DNA of 64,000 nt from Chloroflexota bacterium (GCA_026708035.1 JAPOVQ010000014.1:2826-66825), one strand, 5' to 3'; shown: positions 9,610 to 49,202, counted from the stretch's first letter. The notes: generated from the sequence alone by a model not told the origin. Numbers and translations: made by a program.

Positions 9610-10635
9610 GTGACCCGACGCGTGCGTAGATTCGACAGCGGTCGTCGAGACACAGGCAAGCGCCGATCGAATGGTCTGCTGAGCAACTCTCGGAGAGCGG
9701 GCTTGGTCGTCGCGTTGGGCTTCCTGTGCCTGGCATGCGGAGAAGCCTCAGCGCCGCCTGTGGCGGCCACGCCAGACGCCTCGCCCGCCACATCTGCGCC
9801 CGCGACCGCGCCAACGCCGACGACCATGGCCAGGCTCGCACCGACACCCACGGTCGAGCCTGAGCCAACGCCTATGCCGGAACCCACGCCGACCTCGACA
9901 CCAGTGCCTACGGCGACGCCCGCGCCGACGCCGGAGCCCACGCCGTCGCCGGAGCCGTCACCCACACCCAGCCCCACGCCGACGCCGGCAGTCACACCAG
10001 CGCCGACGCCCACACTCGAAGCCACGGCGGCCCCGGAGCCCACACCGACACCCGAGCCGTCGCCCACGCCAACGCCGGAACCCACCCCCACGCCCGCGCC
10101 GACCGCGACACCGACGCCCGAACCTACGCCAACGCCCGAACCCACCCCGACTCCGTCGCCGACGCCAACACCGGTACCCACTCCGACACCGACGCCGGAA
10201 CCTACGCCGACTCCCGTGCCCCAACCCACGCCGACGCCCACGCCGGAACCGACGCCGACTCCACAGCCCACTCCGACCCCCGTGCCGCAACCCACCCCAA
10301 CGCCTACGCCCGAGCCCACGCCCACTCCCACCGCGGCGCCAGCCGATCCGGCCTTGGGCGCGACGCTGGTCCGCGCGATTGGCTGCGAGGCGTGCCACAG
10401 CGCCGACGGTTCCGACGGCACCGGGCCCACGTGGCAGGGCGTCTACCTCAGCCGGGTCACGCTGGCCGACGGCTCAACGGTCATCGCCGACGACGCCTAT
10501 CTGCTGCGGGCGATCGTGGACCCCAACGCGGAAGTCGTCGAGGGATACGAAGCGGGCCTGATGCAGGCCGACCTCGACACGTTGCTCTCCCGAGAAGAGC
10601 TGCTGGCGATCGTGGCCTATATCAAGTCGCTGTAG
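9610..10635 (+). CDS. Lipoprotein with a long Pro/Thr/Glu stalk and a C-terminal class I cytochrome c domain
   Basis: Lipobox FLCLAC-G. About 190 aa of PTPEPTPTP repeats. Heme motif GCEACH followed by ...GPTWQGVY...[23 protein letters not shown], which resembles the c domain of caa3 subunit II. GTG start is uncertain. Confidence 0.75.
9760..10350. repeat. Low-complexity coding repeat (Pro/Thr/Glu stalk, cc(n)ac(n)cc(n) periodicity)
   Basis: Reiterated ccgacgcc / gagcccacgcc units. They generate the long spurious antisense ORF 9477..10430 ([11 protein letters not shown]...). Confidence 0.8.
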
Positions 10636-10646
10636 CCCCGACCCGC

Positions 10647-11711
10647 CTACGCGTCGCTGATCGGCAGCGTGATCCGGGCGTTGCCGGCGTGCTGCGAGTG
10701 CAGCGCGGCCAGCAGCACTTCGACGACCTGACGCGAGGTGCGACCGTCCATCGAAGGCCGTCCGCCGTGGTGGATCAGCTGCACCATTTCGTCGACGCAA
10801 CCGGCGATGTGGCCCAGGGTGTACTGGGGTCGGGGAAGGCTGCGCTGATTGAAGTCGCCGCCGTTCTTGACGACGACGGTAGCGTTGCCCGAGTCGTCGA
10901 CGCGCACGATCCCGGCGGTTCCCAAGACCTCCAGCGAGAATACCTGCGGCATGGTTTTGCACATATTCCAGAAGGCGCGCACGCCGTTGTCGAACTCGAC
11001 AACCACTGACATCGCGGGGTCGGTGTCGGGGTCGTGGCCGCCGTCGCTGGCATAGCGCGGGGGGTAGTCCTCGAACCCGGCTTCCGCGATCCCGTAGACC
11101 GCGGTGGGCGTGCCGCCGGCGAACCATAGGATGGTGTCGAACATGTGGGTGCCGTTGCGGAACAGCATCGCGCGCGGACCGCCCTGATTGGCAACAATTC
11201 GTTGCACCTCGCCGATTTCGCCGGACGCGATCACCTCCGCCACCTGCACCCACGGGAACATCCAGCGCCGCGTGTGATCCACCAGCATGGGGACGCCTGC
11301 GGCCTCGACGGCGGCGATCATGCGGTCGGCGTCGGCCAGCGTTGAGGCGATGGGCTTTTCGCAGACAATCCCGCGCACGCCGGCGTCGACCGCGTCGACG
11401 ACGATTTGCGCGTGCCGGTCGTCAGGGGTCGCCACGCTGATCACGTCCAACTGCTCGCGGGCCAGCATTTCGCGGTAGTCGGTGTAGCCGCGCACGTCGG
11501 GCAGCGCGTCGCTCCAGGTGCGGTGAAAGTCGTCCAGCTTCTCGGGCACGATGTCGCACACCGCCACCGGCTCCGTGCCGGCGATGTGGTGATAAGCGGC
11601 GACGTGCGAATGCGGCATATCGAAGCCGGTGCCCGGTCCCGGCCCTGGCGCGGGGCGCTTGGCCCCGATGCCGGTCAGGCCGACCACGCCGGCTCGCAGC
11701 GGATTATTCAT
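10647..11711 (-). CDS. Gfo/Idh/MocA family oxidoreductase
   Basis: N-terminal Rossmann segment (RAGVVGLTGIG), the family signature CEKP (IVCEKPIA), and 354 aa. Confidence 0.85.
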   Translation of the reverse strand: MNNPLRAGVVGLTGIGAKRPAPGPGPGTGFDMPHSHVAAYHHIAGTEPVAVCDIVPEKLDDFHRTWSDALPDVRGYTDYREMLAREQLDVISVATPDDRHAQIVVDAVDAGVRGIVCEKPIASTLADADRMIAAVEAAGVPMLVDHTRRWMFPWVQVAEVIASGEIGEVQRIVANQGGPRAMLFRNGTHMFDTILWFAGGTPTAVYGIAEAGFEDYPPRYASDGGHDPDTDPAMSVVVEFDNGVRAFWNMCKTMPQVFSLEVLGTAGIVRVDDSGNATVVVKNGGDFNQRSLPRPQYTLGHIAGCVDEMVQLIHHGGRPSMDGRTSRQVVEVLLAALHSQHAGNARITLPISDA

Positions 11712-11786
11712 GGAGATTTCCGTCGGTGAGACCGGCGGCGATTGTAGGCGCGTGGCCCACGGCGCGCAGCGGGCGCCGCTAGACGC

Positions 11787-12887
11787 CTACAGCGCGTCGA
11801 TGGCCGCCAGGATGTCGGCGGATGTGATCAAGTCGTAAACGCCGCTGTAAATCGACTTCCAGGCCACGTTCCCGTCGAGATCGACCAGGAATGCCGATCC
11901 CGTGGCGAGGCCGTCGCCGAAGTGATTGAACACGCCGTAGGCCCTGGGCACGTCACCCGCGATGTTGTAGAGCACCGGGAAATCGAGCCCGATTCGCTCA
12001 ATGATGCCGGCGGTGTCTTCCAGCGAGTCGGTGCTGATGGCCAGGATTTCCACGCCGCGCGATTGGAATTCCTGGTAGTTGTTCTGCAGCTCCACGAGCT
12101 GCGTGCGGCAAGCCGTTCACCAGAACGCGCGGTAGAACACCACCACCACCGGCTGCTGTCCCTGGAATGCGCTCAGGGTGTACTGCGGTCCTTGGGCGCT
12201 CGGCAGCGAAAAGTCGACGGCGGCTGCCCTGGCGGGGGCCGGTGCTGACGTCGGGGTCGGGGTTGGCTGCGGTGTGGGCGTCGGTTCCGGCGTAGGGGTC
12301 GGTTGCGGCGTCGGCGTGGACGCAGCCGTCTCGCAAACCACGCCGTCGCCGTCTCGATCCGTCATGTACTCATACGCGGGATGGTCGCTCCTGACCGGGG
12401 CAATCCCGTGCGCGCGCGCTTCGGCGCATGAGATCCGACCGTTGCCGTCGTCGTCATAGAGGTCGAGCGCCGTCGGCGCGGGGGTTGGAGTTGGTGTGGG
12501 TTCCGGAGCGGGCGTGGGCGTCGGCTGCGGCGTTGGCGTCGGCGTGGGTTGGGGTGCGGGCGTCGGAGTCGGCGCCGCCGTCGGTGGCGGCGCTGGAGTG
12601 GACGTGGGTGCGGGCGCCGGGGTCGAGGTCGGTTCGGGAACAGCCGTGGGCGTTGGCGCCGCGGCGATGACTACTACCGGAGTGGGCGCGGGAGTAGCGG
12701 TGGGCGTCGGCGGGCTGGTTGGTGTTGGCGCGGGTGGCGGCGGCGCAGGAGTGTCCGTTGGCGCCGGCGGCGGAGTTGCGGTTGCCGTGGGGGCCACCTC
12801 GGCGGCGGGCTCCACGGGCTCGGCGGCTTCGCCGCACGCAGCCAGGACGACCGCCAACGCGACAACAGCAATGATCCCGACGCGCAC
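11787..12887 (-). CDS. Predicted selenoprotein: lipoprotein with Pro/Thr stalk, Excalibur-like Ca-binding insert and a redoxin (TlpA/ResA/AhpC-TSA superfamily) domain with a U-T-A-C active site (TGA at 12117-12119 read as Sec)
   Basis: Track ORFs 12117..12887 and 11787..12095 are in the same frame. Joined, they read ...[43 protein letters not shown]...FPVLYN...AFLVDLDGN. Lipobox VLAAC-G. GGGAGA lies 6 nt before the GTG at 12887. The paralog has its TGA at the same column. Confidence 0.75.
12086..12102 (-). promoter_or_regulatory. Candidate bacterial SECIS hairpin (GCAGCUC-GUG-GAGCUGC), 14 nt downstream of the UGA at 12117-12119
   Basis: Perfect 7-bp inverted repeat on the mRNA with GU in the apical loop. 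Its position matches bacterial SECIS expectations. The core is conserved in the paralog. Confidence 0.45.
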
Positions 12888-12956
12888 CCGGATTCTCCCG
12901 ACGCTACTTCCCTCGAATTCTACGTCGGAGGCGAGGCCATGGTTTGCCGTGGCTGC

Positions 12957-13514
12957 CTAACAACTGCCCTTTCTAATGAACTCAATGAGCTGACGGATCT
13001 CCTCTTCCGTCAGGTCGGAAAACGCCGGCATGCCATTGCCGCCCTCGGCAAGCTGCGAGCGAATGCGGTCCTCCGGCAGGTCCTCTGGAGTGCGGCAGGC
13101 AAGCGCCGGGCCGATGCCGCCGCTGAGGTCTTCACCGTGGCAGACGGTGCAGCCCTTGGCGATGAAGACCTGATGTCCGGGGGAAAGATCCTCACGAGGG
13201 GGCGGCGTCGGCGTGGGTGTCGGCGTGCCGATCGGGGTCGGTGTCGGGGTTGGAGGGGGTGTGGGAGGTAGCGGGGTGGGCACCTCGTCCGCCGGACGGG
13301 CTGTGGGCGAGGGCTCGAGGGGAGGCGCGATTCGACCCGGTGGGACCATGGCCAGCGAGTGGGCGATGACGGGGGTCGGTTCCGGCGTGGGCACAAGGAG
13401 TGAAAGGCGGCTCGATTCGCCGCAGGCCACGACGCCAACAAGGATTACGCCGCTCAGCAGCGCACATATGGCGCGCCCGAGGCGCGCGGCTCGGCGAGAC
13501 CCGGTGACCTTCAC
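12957..13514 (-). CDS. Monoheme class I cytochrome c lipoprotein with a Pro/Thr stalk
   Basis: Lipobox GVVAC-G. Heme motif GCTVCH. Distal Met in GGNGMPAF. 185 aa. Confidence 0.8.
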
Positions 13515-13566
13515 TTGCCTGCGACGCTCCGCTGAGCGGAGCGGCTCGGATTGCGGCGCCGTCGCT

Positions 13567-14244
13567 CTACAGCTCGTCGATGGCCGCCAGGATGTCGCCC
13601 GACGTGATCAGGTCGTGAACGCCGCTGTAGATCGACTTCCAGGCCAGGTTTCCGTCAAGGTCGACCAGGAACGCCGACCCGGTGGCGAGACCGTCGCCGT
13701 AGAGATTGAAGATCCCGTATTCGCGGGGAACGTTGCCCTCGATGTTGTAGAGCACCGGAAACTGAATGCCGATCCGCTCCACGATGCCGGCGGTGTCTTC
13801 GAGCGAGTCCGTGCTGACGGCGAGGATTTCCACGCCGCGCGCCTGAAACTCTTCGTAGTTCTTTTGCAGCTCCACGAGCTGGGTGCGGCAAGTCCCTCAC
13901 CAGAAGGCGCGGTAGAAGACGACGACCACCGGCTGCTGCCCGGCAAACGAGCTAAGCGTGTACTGCGGGCCCTGGGCGCTCGGCAGCGAGAAGTCCACGG
14001 CGGCCGCCCGCGCCGGGGCCGGCGGCGGGGTCGGCGTGGCGGCCGGCTGTGGCGCCTGCGTGGCAGTCGGCTGCGTCGTTGGCGTGGGCGGAGGCGCGGG
14101 AGTGTCCGTGGCCGTGGGCAGTGCGGGGGCCGCGGTTGCCGCGGGCGCGGCCTCGGCGGCCGGTTCCGGCGGAGCGGTGGTGTCGCCGCACGCCGCTAGG
14201 ACCACCGCCAACGCGATGACCGCGACAATTCCGGCTCGCATCAT
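13567..14244 (-). CDS. Predicted selenoprotein paralog: lipoprotein with a short Pro/Thr/Ala stalk and a redoxin domain with a U-G-T-C active site (TGA at 13897-13899 read as Sec)
   Basis: Track ORFs 13897..14304 and 13567..13875 are in the same frame: ...[43 protein letters not shown].... Likely start is MMRAGIV at 14244, with AGGGAAAG upstream. Lipobox VLAAC-G. Confidence 0.75.
13867..13881 (-). promoter_or_regulatory. Candidate SECIS hairpin (CAGCUC-GUG-GAGCUG) downstream of the UGA at 13897-13899
   Basis: 6-bp perfect stem with the same loop and the same spacing as in the paralog. Confidence 0.4.
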
Positions 14245-14311
14245 GGCTTTCCCTGCGGGTCGCCCCTCGGATTCTACGCCGAGCGCGCGGCCGCGCATTG
14301 TCAATTTGATC

Positions 14312-14878
14312 TCAGGAACTGCGAATAAACTCGATGAGCTGAACGATTTGCTCTTCGGTCAAGTCGGGAAACGGCGGCATGCCGTTGCCGCCCTCGGCGA
14401 GCTGCTGGCGAATGCGCTCCTCGGTTAGATCGTCAACCGTCCGCTCCGCGAGAGCCGGTCCGATGCCGCCGCTCAGGTCTTCGGCGTGGCAGACGGTGCA
14501 GCCATTGGCGATGAAGAGTTGATGGCCGGGGGGCAGGTCGCTGGGCGGCGGCTCCGCCGGAGGCGGCGGGGGCGTCACACCCCCGTCCACGGCCGGTGTC
14601 GGCGTCTCGATCACGACGGGAGTTGGCGCCGCGAGGGTGATCACCGCCTCTGGCGTGCGCGGGGGCGGCGCCGGGGCCAAGTTAGGTGCGGTCCGTCCCG
14701 CTGGGACCATGGCCAGCAGTTGGGCGACGGCCGGGGTCGGTTCAGGGGTGGGCGCGAGACCTGAGAACCTGCCCGATTCGCCGCAGGCCGCGACTACGCC
14801 GGCGAGGATGGCGCCGCCCAGAAACGCGCAAATGGCGCCCCCGAGGCGCGCGATTCGTCGGGACCCGATGACTTGCAT
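14312..14878 (-). CDS. Monoheme class I cytochrome c lipoprotein with a Pro-rich stalk (paralog of 12957..13514)
   Basis: Likely start MQVIGSRRIARLGG at 14878. Lipobox VVAAC-G. Heme motif GCTVCH. Distal Met in GGNGMPPF. The track ORF extends to 14932. Confidence 0.8.
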   Translation of the reverse strand: MQVIGSRRIARLGGAICAFLGGAILAGVVAACGESGRFSGLAPTPEPTPAVAQLLAMVPAGRTAPNLAPAPPPRTPEAVITLAAPTPVVIETPTPAVDGGVTPPPPPAEPPPSDLPPGHQLFIANGCTVCHAEDLSGGIGPALAERTVDDLTEERIRQQLAEGGNGMPPFPDLTEEQIVQLIEFIRSS

Positions 14879-14964
14879 TGACCTGCGTTGCTCCGCTGAA
14901 CGGCGCCGCTCCGATCGCGGCGCCGGCGCCATGGTATTACGTCGGGCGGGTTGCTTCAGCGCGG

Positions 14965-16962
<1,998 letters not shown>

Positions 16963-18026: not shown

Positions 18027-18080
18027 CGCCGGGTCCGCCGGTGCTGTCGGCGTCAGGCCGGAGGGAGAGGATGGTGCACG

Positions 18081-18329
18081 ATGACGCCGCCGCTTCGTGT
18101 GCGTGTGCGACCCTACGCGGACCTTGCCCGCTACTTTCCGGGCACCGGCGCGGTGCGGGAGGTTGACGTGCCGGCGGGAGCCACGATCCAGGATCTCCTC
18201 GAACGCTTCGGCGTCGATGCCGAGCCGCGCCTCACGCTTGGCCTGAACGGCGAGCTGGCGCAGCGTGACGCCGCGCTGGCGCCTGGCGACCTGGTCGACA
18301 TCCTCGTCCCGATGTCGGGCGGCATGTAG
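18081..18329 (+). CDS. MoaD/ThiS-family ubiquitin-like sulfur carrier protein ending ...SGG-M
   Basis: 82 aa with the beta-grasp-type pattern (LRVRVRPYADLARYF...VDVPAGATIQDLL...LNGELA...GDLVDILVPMSGGM). Its stop lies 2 nt before the AOR ATG. Confidence 0.7.
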   Translation: MTPPLRVRVRPYADLARYFPGTGAVREVDVPAGATIQDLLERFGVDAEPRLTLGLNGELAQRDAALAPGDLVDILVPMSGGM

Positions 18330-18331
18330 TC

Positions 18332-20197
18332 ATGGCACGCTCCGCCGGCTCGACGCGCCGGCGCTTCCTCCGCGTTGATCTGACCACCGGCCGCGTGCGG
18401 GTCGAGCGACCCGGGCATGACTTCATGCGGCTGCACATGGGCGGGCGCAACGTCATCGCCCACACGCTGCTTTCGGAAGTCCCACCGGGGATCGACGCGT
18501 TCGATTCCGAAAATCGCCTCGTGTTCGCGCTCGGCCCCATCACCGGCGTTTCCGTTCCCGGGGGCAGCCGTCACAGCGTGGGCGCCAAATCGCCGCTCAC
18601 TGGCCTCTTCGGTGAGTCCGAGGCCGGCGGGTATTGGGGCGCCGAGCTCAAGCGGGCCGGCTGGGACGCCATCATCGTGCAGGGGCGGGCGGCGCATCCG
18701 GTATATCTCTGGGTCCACGGCGACGAGGTCGCGCTGCGCGACGCCCGGCCGCTGTGGGGCAAGTTGACTGGACCGGTGGAAGACCGAATCCGGACGGAAC
18801 TCGCCGACCCACAGGTGCGCGTGGCCCAGATCGGTCCTGCCGGCGAGAACCTCGTGCGATTCGCCTGCGTCGTCCACGACCTGAATGAGGTGGCCGGTCG
18901 AACCGGCCTGGGCGCCGTGATGGGATCGAAGAACCTCAAGGCCATTGCCGTGCGCGGCACGCAGCCGGTGTCCGCGGCCGATCCACGGGCGATTGCCGGG
19001 GTGGCGCGCTGGGTGGCCCAGGAGACGCTCGCGCCCGGTGGTGAGCACCATCGGCTCCACACGTGGGGCACCGGCGCCATGGTCAAATCCAAGCTGCTGG
19101 AGGGCCACCTCGTGGCTCACAACTTCCGCGACGGCCGGCTGCCGGGCGGTGACCAGGTGGACGCCCTGGCCATTCAAGATCTCACCGACCACGAGATGGA
19201 TCGCTGCTACGCGTGCTCCGTCCGCTGCAAGAAACGCGTCAGGGTCAGGCGTCCCGACCTCGAGGTCGATCCCAAATACGGCGGTCCGGAGTACGAGACG
19301 ATGGCCGCCATCGGCCCCAACACCGGCGTGGTCGACGTCATGGCCGTCTGCAAGGGCCATGAAATGCTCAACGCGCTGGGCATGGACAGCATTTCCTGCG
19401 GCGCGACGATCGCGTGGGCCATGGAGATGGTCGAGCTCGGCCTGCTGGATGAGCACCGGCTCAACGGCGAGACGCTGCGTTTCGGATCCGCCGACGACTT
19501 GCTGCGCGTGATCGGCAAGATCGCTAGCCGCGAGGGCGTGGGCGACCTGCTGGCCGAGGGCTCGCTGCGAGCGTCGCGCACTCTCGGCGCGGATGCCGAG
19601 GCGAGGGTCGTCCACGTCAAGGGGCTCGAGGTCGCCATGCACGATCCGCGCGCGATGCCCGAGATGCGCCGCAACTACCCGGTCACCCCGACCGGCGGTG
19701 ACCACACCGGCGCCGCGGGCAAGCGCTCCGGAATTCGCAACACGGTCGGTCTATGCCACTTTCTGCAATACGACGAGGCCACGACCCTGAGCCTGCTGAA
19801 CGCAGCCACGGGCTGGGACGTCTCACCGGACGAGCTGCACGCGACCTTCGAGCGCGGCGTCACCATGGCGCGGCTCTTCAACCTCCGCGAAGGACTAAAG
19901 CCGGAAGACGACCGGCTCCCGGACCGCCTGCACGAGCCGCTGCGACAGGGGCCGCTGTACGACCGTCGGCTCAGCCGGGACACCGTCAGGGACGACGTGA
20001 GGGCCTACTATCGCGACCACGGCTGGGACCCGACGACCGGGCGCCCCTATGCCGACACCGTCGAATACCTCGGACTTGGTTCGCTTGCCAAGGCGGCGCA
20101 AGCCACGGAGTTCGTCGCGGAGCGCCGCGAGCCGATTCCGGCCGGACGACGGCCCTACGCGCCACAGCCTGAGGAGGTCGGCGCCATAGGCGAATAG
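18332..20197 (+). CDS. aor: Aldehyde:ferredoxin oxidoreductase family (tungsto/molybdopterin) enzyme
   Basis: 621 aa. The N-terminal block is RFLRVDLTTGRV...GGRNV.... The [4Fe-4S] ligand motif is CYACSVRC plus a later GLCHF. EYETM and DSISCG blocks are also present. Confidence 0.9.
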   Translation: MARSAGSTRRRFLRVDLTTGRVRVERPGHDFMRLHMGGRNVIAHTLLSEVPPGIDAFDSENRLVFALGPITGVSVPGGSRHSVGAKSPLTGLFGESEAGGYWGAELKRAGWDAIIVQGRAAHPVYLWVHGDEVALRDARPLWGKLTGPVEDRIRTELADPQVRVAQIGPAGENLVRFACVVHDLNEVAGRTGLGAVMGSKNLKAIAVRGTQPVSAADPRAIAGVARWVAQETLAPGGEHHRLHTWGTGAMVKSKLLEGHLVAHNFRDGRLPGGDQVDALAIQDLTDHEMDRCYACSVRCKKRVRVRRPDLEVDPKYGGPEYETMAAIGPNTGVVDVMAVCKGHEMLNALGMDSISCGATIAWAMEMVELGLLDEHRLNGETLRFGSADDLLRVIGKIASREGVGDLLAEGSLRASRTLGADAEARVVHVKGLEVAMHDPRAMPEMRRNYPVTPTGGDHTGAAGKRSGIRNTVGLCHFLQYDEATTLSLLNAATGWDVSPDELHATFERGVTMARLFNLREGLKPEDDRLPDRLHEPLRQGPLYDRRLSRDTVRDDVRAYYRDHGWDPTTGRPYADTVEYLGLGSLAKAAQATEFVAERREPIPAGRRPYAPQPEEVGAIGE

Positions 20198-30385: not shown

Positions 30386-30898
30386 TTAGCTCTCCCTCAC
30401 CGGCTGCTCGGCGGCCTGAAAGTCGCCGCTCGCGCCACCGGACTTTTGTATGAGGCGCACGTCGCGCACGGTCATCGCGCGGTCGACGGCTTTGCACATG
30501 TCGTAGACCGTCAGCGCGGCGACGGTGACGGCGGTCAAGGCCTCCATCTCCACGCCCGTGCGGGCAGTGGTGCGCACCGTGGCTTCGATGGCCAGCCCCG
30601 GCGGGTCCTCCGCGGGATCGATGGCCAGGTCAATGCCGCTCAGCGGCAGCGGGTGGCACAGCGGAATGAGGTCCGGCGTGCGCTTGGCCGCCATGATCCC
30701 GGCCACCCGCGCCACGCCCACGACATCGCCCTTTGGCAACGACGACTCGCGGCCGTCCAACTGCGCGCGAATCATGGCCAGCGTTTCGGGCTGCATCTCG
30801 ATTCGCGCCGCCGCCACCGCCACGCGGTCGGTCTCTGGTTTTGCGCCGACATCCACCATGCGCGGAGCCCCGGCACCGTCGAAGTGCGTCAGCCCCAT
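30386..30898 (-). CDS. moaC: Cyclic pyranopterin monophosphate synthase MoaC
   Basis: MGLTHFD...MVDVGAK...DLIPLCHPL...[19 protein letters not shown]. The ATG at 30896-30898 gives the typical length of about 170 aa. The track ORF extends to 31057. Confidence 0.9.
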
Positions 30899-31244
30899 GC
30901 GTGCTTGGTGGACTCCCTTGGACGCGATGAACCGGCCGAATTCTCCCGGGACCAATTCTATCAGGTTGGCCGCGGAAATCGGCATCGCCCGGCGCTTGGC
31001 GGCGGCGCCGCGCACGAGAGCCGGAGGCGACGATTGGCGGCCTGGCGGCGAGCCCATGAATTGTCGGGATTTTGTTGCTGCAAACGCCCCCGTAGGCGGT
31101 GCGGGTCACCTTCCCAGGTCCGCATGGCGTAACTCGGAAAGCCGGATGCTCACCGCTGCCGGCGGCCCGAGGGTCGTACGCCCCGCCGCGACGCGGGCGG
31201 TCCTAGCGGGCGGCTCGGGAACGCGTGTGGTCGGCAGGCCCGCG

Positions 31245-41350: not shown

Positions 41351-41584
41351 ATGATGGTTAAGCCGCGCGTGAAGTTCTCTAGCCAGGCCGACCCGGAATT
41401 GCTGGCGGCGATGCGTCAGATCGCGCGCAACGACTGCCGCCACTTCCAGGCCGTGTTGGAAGACGCCATGACCCACTACATCGAAAGCCGGGCGAGCCAG
41501 CGGGTCCGGCCCGAGGTCATGGCGCACTTCCAGGCGAGCCTTGAAAAGAATCGGCGACTCGGGGAGTTGCTGGGCAAATCGTGA
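41351..41584 (+). CDS. Ribbon-helix-helix-type antitoxin (partner of Doc)
   Basis: 77 aa. The beta-strand/helix/helix pattern VKFSSQADPELLAAMRQIA...FQAVLEDAMTHYI fits RHH. It has a strong SD, and its stop overlaps the GTG of the downstream Doc gene. Confidence 0.6.
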   Translation: MMVKPRVKFSSQADPELLAAMRQIARNDCRHFQAVLEDAMTHYIESRASQRVRPEVMAHFQASLEKNRRLGELLGKS

Positions 41585-41967
41585 CCAGTAACTTTCCGAC
41601 GGTCGAGGAAGTCGTGGCGATCCATGACATTGCCGTCGACGAATTCGGCGGCTCCTTGGGGCTTCGTGATGCGGGCGCCTTGGAGTCCGCCATCATGCGC
41701 CCGCAGCTGGGCTACTACGACGGAGTCCTCGACGAGGCCGCCGCGCTCCTGGAAAGCCTGGCCATGAATCACCCCTTCGTGGACGGCAACAAGCGCACGG
41801 CCTTCTTCGCAACCGACACGTTTCTGCGCAAGAACGGCCGTTTCATCGATTGCGACAACGATGAGGCCTACGCCTTCATCATGCAGTTGTTCGCCACGAA
41901 CTCATTCCGCTTTGCCCAGCTGCGCGAGTGGCTCGAGGAGAAGGTCAGGCCGTTCAGGGAGCCTTGA
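41581..41967 (+). CDS. doc: Doc (death-on-curing) Fic-family toxin
   Basis: 128 aa with the diagnostic HPFVDGNKRTAF motif. Confidence 0.85.
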   Translation: MTSNFPTVEEVVAIHDIAVDEFGGSLGLRDAGALESAIMRPQLGYYDGVLDEAAALLESLAMNHPFVDGNKRTAFFATDTFLRKNGRFIDCDNDEAYAFIMQLFATNSFRFAQLREWLEEKVRPFREP

Positions 41968-45869: not shown

Positions 45870-47159
45870 TCATGGTATCAGCGTGGCCGGTTGGGACAGC
45901 AGCAGCATTTCTCGCTCGTCCAGGGCGATCACGGACACCGGATCGCCGGCTTTGATCACGGCGCCTTCGGCTAGCACCGCCAGGCCGTTGCCCTGGGTCA
46001 TCGAGGTCAGGCGGAACGAATCTTGCTCACCGGCGGGCGCGCACACGAGCTCGTCGCCCTCTCGGCGCACGGTCACCCGCACGTAGGTACGCTTTCCGCT
46101 GGAACTGCGCATAGGCTCCAGGGCGCGTGGTTGAACCATGGGATTCACCAGGCGCGAGTGCCCCATCAGCTTGAGCAGCGCGGGACGCACGAACAGCTCG
46201 AAGCAGACCATGCTCGACACGGGGTTCCCGGGCAGGCCGATCACGGGCGTGCCGTCGATTTCCCCGAAGGCCAGGGGCTTCCCGGGTCGCATGTTGATCT
46301 GCCAGAAGTTCATGCGTCCGGCCGAGGCGATCACGTCTCGCACCAAGTCGTAGTCGCCCATCGACACGCCGCCAATGGTGACCAAGAGGTCGGCGTCGCG
46401 GCCATGCCGGATGGCGGCGCGCAGGCCGGCCTCGGTGTCGGGGGCGATCGGGAGGCGCTCGGCAATTGCGCCGTAGCGCCGTGCAAGCGCGGTCAGGCCC
46501 CACGCATTGCTATTGCGCACCTGCCCCGGAGCGATCGGATCGCCGACCTCCACGATTTCATCGCCGGTCGGAAGGATTGCGACTCGGGCGCGCGGGTGGA
46601 CGCGAACCTCGGTGACGTCCACCGAAGCCAGCACGCCGACGTGGGCGGCGTCCAGCAGGCGGCCCTCCGGAGCGACGACATCGCCCTTGGCGACATCGCC
46701 CCCGCGCCGTCGAATGTTCTCGCCCGGCTCGGCGGTTTCCAGGACACGAACCTCGCCGTTGGCCTCCCCTGACTCTTGGGCCCAGTGCACGCCGTCCGTG
46801 TCCTCGAACGGAAGCACGGCATCGGCGCCCGGCGGAATGGGCGCCCCCGTCATGATCCGCGCCGCGGTTTCCGGCTCGACGTGCACTTCGCCCGCTTGGC
46901 CTGCGGCGACCTCACCGACCACGCGCAGCGACACGCCGGCATCCGCCCGCGCACTCGCGACGTCCGCCGCCCGCAGGGCGTATCCGTCAAAGGCCGAGTT
47001 GTCGAATCCAGGCACGTCGACCTGGGAGGTCACGTCTTCCGCGGTAACCAGCCCGTGAACCTCGGCGAGACCCAACGAAACCGGGGCCAGCGGCTTCACG
47101 GCGGCCAGAATGCGCGTGCGCGCCTCGTCAACGGACAGAAACGTGTCGGTGCCGGGCAC
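45870..47159 (-). CDS. moeA: Molybdopterin molybdotransferase MoeA
   Basis: 429 aa. VPGFDNSAFDGYA, the ...GGVSMGDYD... block, and LPGNPVS. Confidence 0.9.
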   Translation of the reverse strand: MPGTDTFLSVDEARTRILAAVKPLAPVSLGLAEVHGLVTAEDVTSQVDVPGFDNSAFDGYALRAADVASARADAGVSLRVVGEVAAGQAGEVHVEPETAARIMTGAPIPPGADAVLPFEDTDGVHWAQESGEANGEVRVLETAEPGENIRRRGGDVAKGDVVAPEGRLLDAAHVGVLASVDVTEVRVHPRARVAILPTGDEIVEVGDPIAPGQVRNSNAWGLTALARRYGAIAERLPIAPDTEAGLRAAIRHGRDADLLVTIGGVSMGDYDLVRDVIASAGRMNFWQINMRPGKPLAFGEIDGTPVIGLPGNPVSSMVCFELFVRPALLKLMGHSRLVNPMVQPRALEPMRSSSGKRTYVRVTVRREGDELVCAPAGEQDSFRLTSMTQGNGLAVLAEGAVIKAGDPVSVIALDEREMLLLSQPATLIP

Positions 47160-47237
47160 TGTCCCAGAGTCTGCGGCTTGCTGCGTCCACCAGTTTAGAC
47201 CCCGACGCCTCGCCTATGCTTGAGCAAAGGAGCGCAC

Positions 47238-47675
47238 ATGCCCGGCAACACAGGATGCGCGCGCGGCCATGCCACATTCGATCACACGGCGGACATCGGG
47301 CTCGAGGCGTGGGGGCCGTCATTCGGCGAGGCGCTTGCCGAGGCAGGACTGGGCCTCCAGGCCATCGTGCTTCACGGCGGCACCGTTCGCGCCCGGGATA
47401 CGCGAACGTTTCGGGTCGCCGCCGAGGATGCGGGCGCACTCGTGGTGGCCTGGCTCAGCGAGCTGCTCTATGCCTTGGATGTTAATGGTTGGCTGTCGGC
47501 GAGCTTTGAGGTTTCAGTCGACGAAGGATTCCGGCTCTCCGCCACCGCCCATGGCGAGACGCTTGACGAAGCGCATCATCTACTCGGCGTGGGTGTGAAA
47601 GCCGTGAGCTACCACGAGCTGGCCGTGCAGTGTGAATCGGACGCCGTGCGCATCCGGGTGATCGTGGATGTCTAG
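47238..47675 (+). CDS. Archease (RtcB activator)
   Basis: FDHTADIGLEAWG at the N-terminus and VKAVSYHELAV near the C-terminus. It sits immediately upstream of rtcB. Confidence 0.8.
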   Translation: MPGNTGCARGHATFDHTADIGLEAWGPSFGEALAEAGLGLQAIVLHGGTVRARDTRTFRVAAEDAGALVVAWLSELLYALDVNGWLSASFEVSVDEGFRLSATAHGETLDEAHHLLGVGVKAVSYHELAVQCESDAVRIRVIVDV

Positions 47676-47687
47676 CCTGAGGTCGCC

Positions 47688-49202
47688 GTGAGCGCGTCGC
47701 GCCGCCGGAAGCGCCCGCGCGGGCGGGGGGCGGGGCCGCCGGCATCGGGCCCCGACGCCTCGCAGCTCGAGCGCCTCGACCAGTTCCGCTGGCAGATTCC
47801 GACGAGCTACAAGGCCGGAATGCGAGTGCCGGGCGTCATCTACTCGTCCGAAACCATGCTTCCGACGGTCTTATCCGACAAACCCCTGGAGCAGCTGGCC
47901 AACGTCACGTTCCTGCCCGGGATCGTCGGGCACGCCTTGGCCATGCCGGACGTGCATTGGGGCTACGGGTTTCCCGTCGGCGGCGTGGCGGCGACGGATG
48001 TGCGCGACGGCGTGATATCGCCGGGAGGCATCGGGTTTGACATCAACTGCGGCGTGCGGCTCATTCGTACGAACCTCACCGAGGGAGAGCTCCGCCCACG
48101 TCTCAAGGACGCGCTGGACGCACTGTTCCGCGCCGTGCCTGCCGGCATGGGGACCAAGGGCCGCATCCGCCTGACGCACAAGAACATGGATCGGGTGCTG
48201 CGCCGCGGCGCCGCGTGGGCCGTCGACCAAGGGCTCGGCTGGCCCGAGGACCTCGAGGTTGCCGAGGAGGGCGGCGCCCTTGCCGGGGCCGATCCCAAGG
48301 CGGTGTCGGCGCGGGCCAAAGAGCGCGGCGCCGGCCAACTCGGCACCCTGGGCTCGGGGAATCACTTCCTGGAGTTGCAGGTCGTCGATGAGGTATTCGA
48401 TCCATCCGCCGCGTCGGCGCTTGGGATCGAGCAGCCGGGAACCGTCGTCGTCTTCCTGCACACCGGTTCCCGTGGCTGCGGCCACCAGATCTGCCAGGAC
48501 TACTTGCAGACATTCGCCCAGGCGCCGTCGAGTCGCGCGATCGAGTTGCCCGATCGCCAGCTGGCGTGCGCCCCCTTGCGCTCGCCGGAAGGGCAGGACT
48601 ACCTGGCGGCCATGGCGTGCGGCGCGAACTTCGCCTGGGCGAATCGACAGGCGATCACGCACTGGACGCGCGAGGCGCTCTCGGGTGTATTTGGCCGCTC
48701 GGCGCGATCACTCGGCATGGAGGTGGTGTACGACGTGGCGCACAACATCGCGAAAATCGAAGAGCACGTCGTTGACGGTGAGGTGCGCCGCGTCTGCGTG
48801 CACCGCAAGGGCGCCACGCGCGCTTTCCCACCCGGACACCCTGAGCTTCCGAGCAAATACCGGGACGTCGGGCAACCGGTGTTCATCCCTGGCGACATGG
48901 GGCGGGCGTCCTATGTGGCCGTCGGCACGGCGGGCGCGATGGAGCAGTCCTTCGGCTCCACCTGTCACGGCGCCGGCCGCGTCCTCAGCCGCTCCGCGGC
49001 GCGCCGGCGGCTACGAGGGGTGAACATGGTCGAGCGGCTTGCCGCCTTGGGCGTCGGCGTTCGCGCGCGCAATCCTCGGCTGCTCAGCGAAGAAGCTCCC
49101 GACGCCTACAAGAACGTGACCGATGTGACCGCCATCACCCACGGCGCGGGAATCTCCCGCAATGTGGCCCGGCTGCGGCCCGTGGGCGTGATCAAAGGCT
49201 AG
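47688..49202 (+). CDS. rtcB: RNA 3'-phosphate ligase RtcB
   Basis: GMRVPG, MPDVHWGYGFPVGG, GFDINCGVR, LGSGNHFLE, AHN and CHGAGR. GTG start with an Arg-rich N-terminal extension. Confidence 0.9.
   Translation: MSASRRRKRPRGRGAGPPASGPDASQLERLDQFRWQIPTSYKAGMRVPGVIYSSETMLPTVLSDKPLEQLANVTFLPGIVGHALAMPDVHWGYGFPVGGVAATDVRDGVISPGGIGFDINCGVRLIRTNLTEGELRPRLKDALDALFRAVPAGMGTKGRIRLTHKNMDRVLRRGAAWAVDQGLGWPEDLEVAEEGGALAGADPKAVSARAKERGAGQLGTLGSGNHFLELQVVDEVFDPSAASALGIEQPGTVVVFLHTGSRGCGHQICQDYLQTFAQAPSSRAIELPDRQLACAPLRSPEGQDYLAAMACGANFAWANRQAITHWTREALSGVFGRSARSLGMEVVYDVAHNIAKIEEHVVDGEVRRVCVHRKGATRAFPPGHPELPSKYRDVGQPVFIPGDMGRASYVAVGTAGAMEQSFGSTCHGAGRVLSRSAARRRLRGVNMVERLAALGVGVRARNPRLLSEEAPDAYKNVTDVTAITHGAGISRNVARLRPVGVIKG

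What the first reader, a model, noticed from the sequence alone, without database searches (positions are those of the whole stretch)
13567..14244. Predicted selenoprotein 2: the paralog carries TGA at the identical active-site column (U-G-T-C)
Track ORFs 13897..14304 and 13567..13875 are in one frame and join as ...[13 protein letters not shown]-[TGA at 13897-13899][31 protein letters not shown].... The flanking residues, including the resolving Cys three positions later, match paralog 1. The two residues between Sec and Cys differ (TA versus GT) and many synonymous positions differ. So the TGA has been kept through divergence of the two copies, which argues for a functional codon and against a recent nonsense mutation.
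Basis: partly seen in the sequence, partly recalled or inferred. Interest (0 to 1): 0.75.

Follow-up and report, generated by a model that had tools for sequence, protein, structure and literature searches.

The report
Selenocysteine thioredoxin-like lipoprotein gene, paralog 2
The in-frame TGA is real and almost certainly encodes selenocysteine in the active site of a membrane-anchored, peroxiredoxin-like thiol-disulfide oxidoreductase of a Chloroflexota bacterium; this selenoprotein family is already known, but databases annotate this gene as two fragments.

Summary
On the minus strand, 14244/14241..13567 is one gene interrupted only by TGA at 13899-13897. Read through, it encodes a lipoprotein with a Pro/Thr-rich linker and an AhpC/TSA domain (E 9e-29) that spans the TGA. 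All 28 copies found in the window and 14 related Chloroflexota genomes or contigs (44-95% identity) carry TGA at this codon, never TAA or TAG. An ordinary stop 70 nt upstream alternates between TGA and TAG in the same genomes. The 109 codons after the TGA are under purifying selection (dN/dS 0.20, GC3 0.86), including the seven codons before any possible restart. Distant homologs have Cys in this column (FYRxxWCxxCRxQL). A conserved hairpin with a GUG loop lies 21 nt after the UGA and shows one compensatory pair. The Sec aligns with the first Cys of the WCxxC motif of ResA/DsbE and with the Thr of Prx PxxxTxxC. The gene therefore belongs to the published "Prx-like thiol:disulfide oxidoreductase" UxxC selenoproteins and is not a true peroxiredoxin. 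Untested: the Sec machinery, which is absent from the window, and actual selenium insertion. Verdict: a new member of a known kind.

The parts
13567..14244 (-). Complete gene of paralog 2, a 225-codon (or 224-codon) selenolipoprotein. The start is ATG 14244 or, more likely, ATG 14241. The stop is TAG 13569-13567.
   Evidence: a single frame with one TGA. (the AhpC-TSA domain spans the TGA). (start codon aligned with the orthologs).
13897..13899 (-). In-frame UGA, the predicted selenocysteine codon (U in FW-U-GTC).
   Evidence: TGA in 28 of 28 copies. Cys in this column in Acidobacteriota homologs and in most full-length representative clusters.
13888..13890 (-). Cys codon of the UxxC motif (TGC). 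It corresponds to the second Cys of WCxxC and to the peroxidatic Cys position of Prx.
   Evidence: alignments to 3gl3 DsbE and to AhpE. The codon varies TGC/TGT among copies.
13866..13882 (-). SECIS-like hairpin: C-CAGCUC-GUG-GAGCUG-C. It has 6 bp in this paralog, with a C-C mismatch at the seventh pair. The loop GUG is at 13875-13873, and 21 nt separate the UGA from the loop.
   Evidence: all six pairs are kept in 20 distinct sequences, and pair 21-31 is G-C in 17 and A-U in 3, never changed on one side only; energy is -6.7 to -7.4 kcal/mol, just short of the -7.5 of the published model.
14188..14244 (-). Lipoprotein signal peptide [19 protein letters not shown], with lipobox LAAC.
   Evidence: The same lipobox occurs in nearly all N-terminal fragments in the database.
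13639..14004 (-). AhpC/TSA (Redoxin) thioredoxin-fold domain, residues 81-202, spanning the UGA.
   Evidence: PF00578 E 9.3e-29 and PF08534 E 7.4e-19.
11787..12887 (-). Paralog 1, with motif U-TA-C. UGA is at 12119-12117 and the 7-bp hairpin is at 12102-12086. An Excalibur domain sits in the linker.
   Evidence: hairpin energy is -10.1 kcal/mol and meets the bSECIS model.
14312..14932 (-). Monohaem c-type cytochrome lipoprotein gene (CTVCH) immediately upstream of paralog 2. A second one (12957..13514) lies upstream of paralog 1.
   Evidence: PF13442, PF00034; the cyt c - PrxU synteny is conserved.

Best explanation
13567..14244 (minus strand) is one intact gene for a selenocysteine-containing lipoprotein, and its internal UGA (13899-13897) is decoded as Sec.

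Shown:
- The protein has a lipoprotein signal peptide (lipobox LAAC), a Pro/Thr-rich linker of about 60 residues, and a thioredoxin-fold AhpC/TSA domain with the motif FW-U-G-T-C.
- The Sec occupies the position of the N-terminal nucleophilic Cys of the WCxxC motif of ResA, DsbE and TlpA-type oxidoreductases.
- The Cys three residues later occupies the peroxidatic-Cys position of Prx, while the Pro, Thr and Arg of the Prx catalytic site are missing.

Inferred mechanism:
- SelB with Sec-tRNA(Sec) is recruited by the short hairpin CAGCUC-GUG-GAGCUG, 21 nt after the UGA.
- The protein is exported and lipid-anchored on the outer face of the membrane.
- The selenolate attacks a substrate disulfide (or a sulfenate or peroxide). 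The resulting selenenylsulfide is resolved by the Cys at +3, giving an intramolecular Se-S bond.
- That bond is re-reduced by a CcdA/DsbD-type transmembrane route.

The conserved pairing with a monohaem cytochrome c lipoprotein gene suggests a ResA/TlpA-like role in keeping the CxxCH cysteines of that cytochrome, or of other respiratory components, reduced. I put this specific role at about 0.35. The gene is a member of the published 'Prx-like thiol:disulfide oxidoreductase' (UxxC) group of bacterial selenoproteins.
For: - Frame and motif.
- Domain: Pfam AhpC-TSA E 9e-29, spanning the TGA.
- Database homologs: every close homolog is split exactly here. There are 25 C-terminal fragments of 102-113 aa and 27 N-terminal fragments that all end in VVFYRAFW.
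- Conservation of the codon: 28 copies in the window plus 14 Chloroflexota genomes or contigs all have TGA, down to 44-56% identity.
- Control stops: the terminal stops of these genes are TAG or TAA. The upstream cyt c stop is TGA in 6 and TAG in 4 of the same genomes. TGA ends 10 of 45 other genes in the window.
- Coding constraint: dN/dS is 0.20 downstream, with p 6e-8. Codons +3 to +6 vary only synonymously, and they lie before any possible restart codon. GC3 is 0.86.
- Cys in the Sec column: FWCPFC in Acidobacteriota. Among the 60 representative clusters that cover the site, most have FYRxxWCxxCRxQL, and 82 of the best 150 clusters begin just after the site.
- Hairpin: it is conserved, with one compensatory G-C to A-U change and no one-sided change. 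The paralog 1 hairpin meets the published bSECIS constraints (constraints from PMC13188914).
- Active-site alignment to DsbE 3gl3 and to AhpE.
- Lipobox.
- The family is described in PMC1088965, PMC1794560 and PMC13188914.
- Sec use and tRNA-Sec are reported for Chloroflexi.
- Distant Cys homologs are fused to DsbD_N and SurA_N domains.
Against: - No selA, selB, selD or tRNA-Sec was found in the 64-kb window or in the fetched flanks. The Sec-decoding trait of this organism therefore remains unverified.
- The paralog 2 hairpin has only 6 bp and an energy of -6.7 to -7.4 kcal/mol, just under the -7.5 threshold of the model. About 10.6% of all TGA triplets in the window have a hairpin that meets the model.
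- Folding of the single sequence is no better than shuffled controls.
- No Rfam SECIS family matches.
- All NCBIfam hits, including the selenoprotein-specific models, fall below their cut-offs.
- The physiological substrate and the link to cytochrome c rest on gene neighbourhood only.
Confidence: 0.82

Rival explanations
1. The UGA is decoded, but not as selenocysteine. It could be read as Cys by a tRNA-Cys(UCA) or selC*-type system, or as Trp or another residue by near-cognate read-through or a suppressor tRNA.
For: All the comparative evidence (conserved TGA, constraint downstream, Cys in homologs) fits any sense decoding equally well. selC* tRNA-Cys(UCA) systems that translate Sec codons as Cys exist in some anaerobic bacteria (PMC5389517). 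The Sec machinery was not found here. Two database representatives show W in this column, which may reflect gene calling with an alternative genetic code.
Against: TGA is a normal stop in this genome: it ends 10 of 45 genes, and it alternates with TAG at the cyt c stop. General reassignment is therefore excluded. selC* systems were reported only in Firmicutes, Thermodesulfobacteria, Nitrospirae and Proteobacteria that also carry the full Sec machinery. A position-specific hairpin with a G-first loop at bSECIS spacing is what SelB-type recoding needs. If Cys were the product, TGC or TGT would be expected to replace TGA in at least some of the 28 copies.
Confidence: 0.06
2. It is a selenoprotein, but it works as an extracytoplasmic peroxidase that reduces H2O2, organic peroxides or sulfenic acids. 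In this reading it is peroxiredoxin-like or GPx-like and not a disulfide reductase, possibly with the neighbouring cytochrome c as its redox partner.
For: The best Pfam match is AhpC/TSA. The PDB matches include AhpE, BCP and 2-Cys Prx, and the second Cys sits at the peroxidatic position. Selenols react quickly with peroxides (general knowledge of GPx and Sec-Prx). The conserved cyt c neighbour could donate electrons.
Against: The Prx catalytic Pro, Thr and Arg are absent: the motif is FYRAFWUGTC and GLATGSAF replaces the Arg-containing motif. The WCxxC-type motif and the top NCBIfam and PDB hits (ResA, DsbE) point to disulfide exchange. Distant homologs are fused to DsbD_N and SurA_N. The published family is classed as a thiol:disulfide oxidoreductase and not as a Prx.
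Confidence: 0.22
3. The TGA is a true stop. Either the locus is a pseudogene, or it consists of two separately translated genes: an N-terminal lipoprotein fragment and a 102-aa C-terminal protein that starts at GTG 13875, as the databases annotate it.
For: Gene callers and GenBank annotate it this way, for example MCY3912399.1 'hypothetical protein'. The GTG at 13875 is a possible start codon.
Against: TGA is invariant in 28 copies across an old duplication and many species, and is never TAA or TAG. The seven codons between the TGA and the GTG are conserved as protein, with synonymous variation only. The domain and its active-site motif would be cut in two, and the C-terminal part has no signal peptide while the N-terminal part is exported. 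There is purifying selection on both sides. The GTG is the loop of the conserved hairpin and has no Shine-Dalgarno sequence in front of it.
Confidence: 0.02
4. The TGA is a sequencing or assembly error for TGC or TGT.
For: None beyond the general possibility in metagenome-derived sequence.
Against: The same codon appears in 28 copies from independent assemblies, including complete chromosomes, and in both window paralogs.
Confidence: 0.003

Closest known systems
Prx-like thiol:disulfide oxidoreductase selenoproteins (Zhang, Gladyshev and co-workers; PF00578; UxxC or UxxU; reference WP_010940744.1 of Geobacter; abundant in the Sargasso Sea and GOS data)
   Same: It has an AhpC/TSA-fold domain. 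A thioredoxin-like UxxC motif stands where Sec-Prx has TxxU. Cys homologs carry CxxC. A small G-containing hairpin follows the UGA.
   Different: This clade is from Chloroflexota. Its members are lipoproteins with long Pro/Thr linkers, occur as 2-3 tandem paralogs, and are paired with cytochrome c genes. Direct similarity to the reference sequence was not tested. No NCBIfam selenoprotein model reaches its cut-off.
ResA / TlpA / CcmG (DsbE) extracytoplasmic thiol-disulfide oxidoreductases of cytochrome c and oxidase maturation
   Same: It has the thioredoxin fold and a membrane-anchored extracytoplasmic location. The W-C/U-x-x-C motif aligns residue for residue with 3gl3 DsbE. ResA is the best NCBIfam hit, and the gene lies next to c-type cytochrome genes.
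   Different: It scores 51 bits against the ResA cut-off of 170, has Sec in place of Cys, and is closer to AhpC/TSA than to the Thioredoxin/Redoxin TlpA models. No ccsBA, resBC or ccdA genes lie nearby.
Sec-containing peroxiredoxin PrxU (Eubacterium acidaminophilum type, PxxxTxxU)
   Same: It belongs to the same Pfam family and is also a selenoprotein.
   Different: In PrxU the Sec is the peroxidatic residue (TxxU). Here the Sec replaces the Thr three residues earlier, a Cys sits at the peroxidatic position, and the Pro and Arg are missing. The NCBIfam peroxi_PrxU score is 41 bits against a cut-off of 270.
SelL / Prx-like2 group (NCBIfam NF040769, SelL-related redox protein) and the cd02970 'peroxiredoxin-like family' UxxS selenoproteins
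   Same: These are Prx-like folds with a redox motif at the same place, and the N-terminal half matches (E 2.7e-13).
   Different: The score is 50 bits against a cut-off of 120 and covers only profile positions 3-81 of 173. The motif here is UxxC, not UxxU or UxxS.
Rcas_1661 family thioredoxin-like (seleno)lipoprotein (NF041057, named after a Roseiflexus locus)
   Same: It is a Chloroflexi-associated thioredoxin-like lipoprotein family that has Sec forms. The signal peptide to active-site region gives a weak match (E 2e-8).
   Different: The score is 34 bits against a cut-off of 190, so this is a different family.
Mycobacterium tuberculosis AhpE (1xxu, 1xvw), a one-Cys Prx
   Same: It is among the best solved-structure matches over the whole domain (E 4e-9 to 1e-8).
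   Different: AhpE has FFPLAFTGIC with Thr and the catalytic Arg. Here the Thr is replaced by Sec and the Arg is absent.

Membership tests
Bacterial selenoprotein gene (Sec-encoding UGA) | In-frame TGA conserved among orthologs and paralogs, followed by a continuing conserved frame | tested here: met
   28 of 28 copies have TGA, with 109 (or 112) open codons after it.
Bacterial selenoprotein gene (Sec-encoding UGA) | Cys-containing homologs with Cys aligned to the TGA | tested here: met
   L010 and L011 have FWCPFC. P0053-55 have CPIC. Most of the 60 full-length representative clusters have WCxxC.
Bacterial selenoprotein gene (Sec-encoding UGA) | Purifying selection on the sequence downstream of the TGA | tested here: met
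   dN/dS is 0.20 and pooled pN/pS is 0.27. Fisher p is 6e-8. GC3 is 0.86.
Bacterial selenoprotein gene (Sec-encoding UGA) | bSECIS element: a 3-9 nt loop with G in its first two positions, a 4-16 bp stem, 16-37 nt from the UGA, and MFE <= -7.5 kcal/mol (PMC13188914) | tested here: inconclusive
   The loop (GUG), the 21-nt spacing and the 6-bp stem fit, but the energy is -6.7 to -7.4 for paralog 2. Paralog 1 (7 bp, -10.1) meets all criteria. About 10.6% of random TGA triplets also pass. Conservation and one compensatory pair support the hairpin.
Bacterial selenoprotein gene (Sec-encoding UGA) | selA, selB, selD and tRNA-Sec present in the same genome | not testable with these tools
   None were found in the window or the fetched flanks.
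Bacterial selenoprotein gene (Sec-encoding UGA) | Selenium actually incorporated at the UGA | not testable with these tools
   This needs 75Se labelling or mass spectrometry.
Prx-like thiol:disulfide oxidoreductase selenoprotein family | AhpC/TSA (PF00578) domain containing the Sec | tested here: met
   PF00578 E 9.3e-29, residues 81-202, with the Sec at residue 116.
Prx-like thiol:disulfide oxidoreductase selenoprotein family | Thioredoxin-like UxxC motif in place of the Prx TxxC/TxxU motif | tested here: met
   U aligns with the Thr of AhpE FTGIC and with the first Cys of DsbE WCGPC. The family definition is in PMC1088965.
Prx-like thiol:disulfide oxidoreductase selenoprotein family | Significant direct similarity to a reference member (WP_010940744.1) | not tested
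   The reference sequence could not be fetched with the tools.
Canonical peroxiredoxin (AhpC, BCP, AhpE, PrxU) | Catalytic PxxxT/SxxC(U) motif plus the conserved Arg | tested here: not met
   The motif is FYRAFWUGTC, with Pro replaced by Arg and Thr by Sec. GLATGSAF aligns where AhpE has GIANRGTF, so the Arg is absent. NCBIfam Prx models score 29-44 bits against cut-offs of 140-301.
ResA / TlpA / CcmG | Score above the curated family cut-off | tested here: not met
   ResA scores 51.3 against 170, TlpA 25.5 against 230, and StoA 29.6 against 210.
NCBIfam selenoprotein models (SelL_rel_redox, WAxxUGC_long, Rcas_1661_fam_Se) | Score above the curated cut-off | tested here: not met
   The scores are 49.9 against 120, 38.8 against 300, and 33.9 against 190.
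Bacterial lipoprotein | N-terminal signal peptide ending in a lipobox [LVI][ASTVI][GAS]C | tested here: met
   The signal peptide is [20 protein letters not shown]. It is conserved in the orthologous N-terminal fragments. This was judged by pattern only, because no dedicated predictor was available.

The most novel reading that the evidence does not exclude
The conserved cassette of a monohaem cytochrome c lipoprotein and a UxxC selenolipoprotein, duplicated 2-3 times, could be a previously undescribed extracytoplasmic redox module. In it, a haem protein and a selenenylsulfide protein would exchange electrons directly. Examples would be a respiratory-chain-coupled selenoperoxidase, or a selenium-dependent system for cytochrome maturation or repair. 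On this reading it would be more than one further UxxC oxidoreductase.
Probability: 0.1. Interest if true: 0.65.

Novelty: new member of a known kind. Interest (0 to 1): 0.4.

Why it matters
The gene is mis-annotated everywhere it was found. It appears as a 'hypothetical protein' N-terminal fragment plus a 102-aa 'peroxiredoxin' fragment. Recognising it restores 2-3 selenoproteins per genome in a clade of uncultured Chloroflexota, and it implies that these organisms depend on selenium. It also adds lipid-anchored, extracytoplasmic members to the Prx-like UxxC family, and their conserved cytochrome c neighbours give a testable hint about a family whose physiological function is still unknown. 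The principle itself is established: Sec replaces the nucleophilic Cys of a CxxC thioredoxin-fold protein. A specialist would therefore find this useful but not surprising.

Tried and rejected
- Single-sequence RNA folding of the 60 nt after each UGA gave z-scores of +0.55 and -0.58, which is not informative. The argument rests on comparative evidence instead.
- Rfam gave no SECIS or tRNA-Sec match at the gathering threshold on the whole window, or at E <= 10 on 11700-14400.
- ARAGORN found only tRNA-Val and tRNA-Asn in the window. The one hit in the loci is a 94-nt 'tRNA-Phe' in L002, antisense inside the GFO/IDH/MocA gene, which I judged a false positive.
- A Pfam survey of 40 window ORFs looking for selA, selB and selD found none.
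- A GC3-based scan for further in-frame TGA genes in the window found only paralog 2. The other two hits are an ordinary gene junction at 485 and an antisense artefact at 46770.
No fold search was therefore done.
- The outer helix that RNAalifold proposed (columns 11-15 with 62-66) was not adopted, because it closes a 46-nt multiloop and has broken pairs.
- A search of the protein database with E. coli SelD or SelB was considered and dropped. The hits would be dominated by close relatives of the query and could not be tied to this lineage.
- A sigma-70-type promoter scan of 11600-15200 found nothing.

Full report
**Observation**

On the minus strand, the ORF that ends in ...[13 protein letters not shown] is followed by TGA at 13899-13897. 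The same frame then continues as [31 protein letters not shown]... for 109 codons, to TAG at 13569-13567.

There is one small correction. Alignment of the upstream region with nine orthologous loci places the start at the codon before CGN(Arg). In the window this is the second ATG, at 14241, and it follows a GGAG-like motif.

**What the protein is**

With the TGA replaced by Cys for searching, the 225-residue product has three parts:
- a lipoprotein signal peptide, [19 protein letters not shown], with lipobox LAAC;
- a Pro/Thr/Ala-rich linker;
- an AhpC/TSA domain at residues 81-202 (PF00578 E 9.3e-29; Redoxin E 7.4e-19), which spans the TGA.

Paralog 1 is built the same way, with a longer linker that contains an Excalibur calcium-binding domain.

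**Is the TGA a conserved sense codon?**

- In the 5.8-billion-protein collection, every close relative is split at exactly this point. There are 25 C-terminal fragments of 102-113 aa, all beginning at the internal GTG or ATG. There are 27 N-terminal fragments, all ending in VVFYRAFW.
- In one-genome-per-species contigs, nine Chloroflexota MAGs carry a syntenic locus with two or three tandem copies. Five more distant contigs were fetched through the fragments.
- Together with the window this gives 28 copies, with 44-95% protein identity to paralog 2. All 28 have TGA, and none has TAA, TAG, TGC or TGT.
- The 21 copies in the window and the nine MAGs have exactly 109 open codons after the TGA and no indels.
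- Copies cluster by motif type (UGTC, UTTC, UTAC) and not by genome. The duplication is therefore older than these species, and each lineage has kept the TGA independently.
- Genuine stops behave differently. The terminal stop of these genes is TAG in 20 copies and TAA in one. The stop of the cytochrome c gene about 70 nt upstream is TGA in six of the same genomes and TAG in four.
- TGA also ends 10 of 45 other genes in the window, so the genetic code as a whole is not reassigned.

**Coding constraint**

- Between the two window paralogs, Nei-Gojobori dS is 0.51 and dN is 0.10 downstream of the TGA (ratio 0.20). Upstream, dS is 1.11 and dN is 0.04 (ratio 0.04).
- The excess of synonymous change is significant on both sides (p 6e-8 and 7e-9).
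- Pooled over 210 pairs, pN/pS is 0.27 downstream and 0.07 upstream.
- GC at third codon positions is 0.86 downstream, against 0.67 for the window as a whole.
- The seven codons between the TGA and the first possible restart codon (GTG 13875) are conserved as x-x-C-R-T-Q-L. They show synonymous changes: TGC/TGT, CGC/CGT, ACC/ACG and CAG/CAA. Translation therefore runs through the TGA in this frame.
- A separately initiated C-terminal protein would also lack a signal peptide, while the N-terminal half is exported.

**Cys/Sec pair**

- Acidobacteriota homologs (28-29% identity) read VFYRAFWCPFCARQL. More distant full-length database homologs read HCPIC.
- An exhaustive HMMER search of 1.84 billion cluster representatives, using the 109 C-terminal residues, found 544 relatives.
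- Of the best 150, 60 cover the site, and most of these read FYRxxWCxxCRxQL.
- Another 82 of the 150 begin within a few residues after the site, which is the signature of further TGA-split genes.

**Recoding signal**

- All 28 copies have the hairpin (G/C)CAGCUC-GUG-GAGCUGC, with 21 nt between the UGA and the loop. The loop is GUU in one copy.
- In 20 distinct sequences, six pairs are always formed. Pair 21-31 is G-C in 17 sequences and A-U in 3 (L002, and the L012/L016 clade). It is never changed on one side only, and sliding the partner strand abolishes pairing.
- Third positions of codons +7 to +10 are invariant.
- The published bacterial SECIS model requires a 3-9 nt loop with G in its first two positions, a 4-16 bp stem, 16-37 nt spacing and MFE <= -7.5 kcal/mol (PMC13188914).
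- Paralog 1 (7 bp, -10.1 kcal/mol) meets this model. Paralog 2 (6 bp, -6.7 to -7.4 kcal/mol) narrowly misses the energy criterion.
- The model is permissive, since 10.6% of all TGA triplets in the window pass it. Single-sequence folding is unremarkable, and Rfam has no matching family.
- The hairpin is therefore supporting evidence and not decisive evidence.

**Active site and family**

- Against solved structures, the Sec aligns with the first Cys of the WCGPC motif of a DsbE-type protein (3gl3). It also aligns with the Thr of the FTGIC (PxxxTxxC) motif of M. tuberculosis AhpE.
- The Cys at +3 aligns with the second Cys of CxxC and with the peroxidatic Cys of Prx. The Prx Pro and Arg are absent.
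- That family is listed as 'Prx-like thiol:disulfide oxidoreductase', PF00578, UxxC/UxxU, 'predicted with high confidence' (PMC13188914; PMC1794560).
- NCBIfam gives only sub-threshold hits: ResA 51/170, SelL-related 50/120, WAxxUGC 39/300, Rcas_1661 (seleno)lipoprotein 34/190 and PrxU 41/270. The clade is therefore not covered by a curated model.
- GenBank calls the N-terminal fragment a hypothetical protein.

**Context**

- The order Acs - cyt c - PrxU - [cyt c] - PrxU(-PrxU) - GFO/IDH/MocA oxidoreductase - (cyt c lipoprotein on the opposite strand) - acyltransferase is conserved in all nine MAGs. The second cyt c is complete in the window, L002 and L005, a remnant in L008 and L009, and absent elsewhere.
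- Cytochrome c genes also flank more distant homologs (L015, L016), and the GFO gene follows in L012, L016 and L017.
- The cytochromes are monohaem (CTVCH) lipoproteins.
- Distant Cys homologs occur fused to DsbD_N and SurA_N domains or as tandem domains. This fits extracytoplasmic thiol-disulfide chemistry.
- The rest of the window is ordinary chromosome: gyrA, a Clp ATPase, accA/accD, moaC, moeA, a tungsten-type aldehyde oxidoreductase and peptide-binding proteins.

**Mechanism**

Shown: this is a single translated frame with a conserved UGA in the position of the nucleophilic Cys of a thioredoxin-fold CxxC motif, in a lipoprotein.

Inferred from established knowledge of SelB/SECIS recoding and of thioredoxin-fold selenoproteins:
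- SelB with Sec-tRNA(Sec) binds the hairpin and inserts Sec.
- The anchored domain uses the selenolate to attack a substrate disulfide, and the Cys at +3 resolves the mixed selenenylsulfide.
- The Se-S form is recycled by a CcdA/DsbD-type route.

A ResA/TlpA-like role towards the co-encoded cytochrome c is my best guess for the substrate (about 0.35). A peroxidase role is the main functional rival (about 0.22).

**What remains open**

- No selA, selB, selD or tRNA-Sec lies in the window or in the fetched flanks, and whole genomes of the lineage could not be scanned.
- At phylum level, Sec use, tRNA-Sec and selenoproteins are documented for Chloroflexi, and NCBIfam holds a Chloroflexi-named selenolipoprotein family.
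- Decoding of the UGA as Cys or another residue is not formally excluded (about 0.06).

**Verdict**

The gene is a genuine but unannotated member of a known selenoprotein family. Its clade-specific features are the lipid anchor, the tandem paralogs and the cytochrome c partner. Interest is moderate.

Noticed in passing
window 12330-12431 (minus strand), inside paralog 1: Paralog 1 carries an Excalibur calcium-binding domain (PF05901, E 8.6e-10, residues 153-186) inside its Pro/Thr-rich linker, between the lipid anchor and the redox domain. Paralog 2 lacks it.
   Followed up: no
window 14271-14277 (minus strand); the same position in L001-L009: An invariant GTAGAAT motif lies about 30 nt upstream of the PrxU start codon in all ten genomes, in an otherwise variable spacer between cyt c and PrxU. 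It resembles a -10 box. The TTGACA-like element upstream is 22 nt away, too far for a standard sigma-70 promoter, and the promoter scan reported nothing.
   Followed up: partly
window 9610-10635 (+), 12957-13514 (-), 14312-14932 (-): Three monohaem c-type cytochrome lipoproteins lie within 5 kb. Each has a lipobox and a Pro/Thr-rich linker, and the linker of the first is about 200 residues of PTPEPTP-type repeats.
   Followed up: partly
L001-L009, L017: The copy number of the cassette varies between genomes. There are two PrxU copies in most genomes and three (UGTC, UTTC, UTAC) in L006 and L017. The second cyt c is complete, a remnant (L008 5137-5271, L009 6567-6785) or absent.
   Followed up: partly
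proteins P0075 and P0099: Two representative database proteins read VF(F/Y)RGHF-W-GICRAQL, with Trp in the Sec/Cys column. They may be TGA codons translated as Trp by a gene caller that used an alternative genetic code, and so may be further hidden Sec forms.
   Followed up: no
window 13525-13543 (minus strand): A perfect 8-bp inverted repeat, CGCTCCGC-TCA-GCGGAGCG, lies between the stop of paralog 2 and the start of the next cyt c gene. No T-run follows it, so it is not a canonical intrinsic terminator.
   Followed up: no
L002 9032-9125 (minus strand): ARAGORN calls a 94-nt 'tRNA-Phe' here. It lies antisense inside the GFO/IDH/MocA coding region and is probably a false positive.
   Followed up: partly
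window 18027-20197, 30386-31105, 45870-47213: A tungsten or molybdenum-type aldehyde:ferredoxin oxidoreductase is preceded by a ThiS/MoaD-like ORF, and MoaC and MoeA genes lie elsewhere in the window. RtcB with archease is at 47199-49202, and a Fic/DOC gene is at 41545-41967.
   Followed up: no
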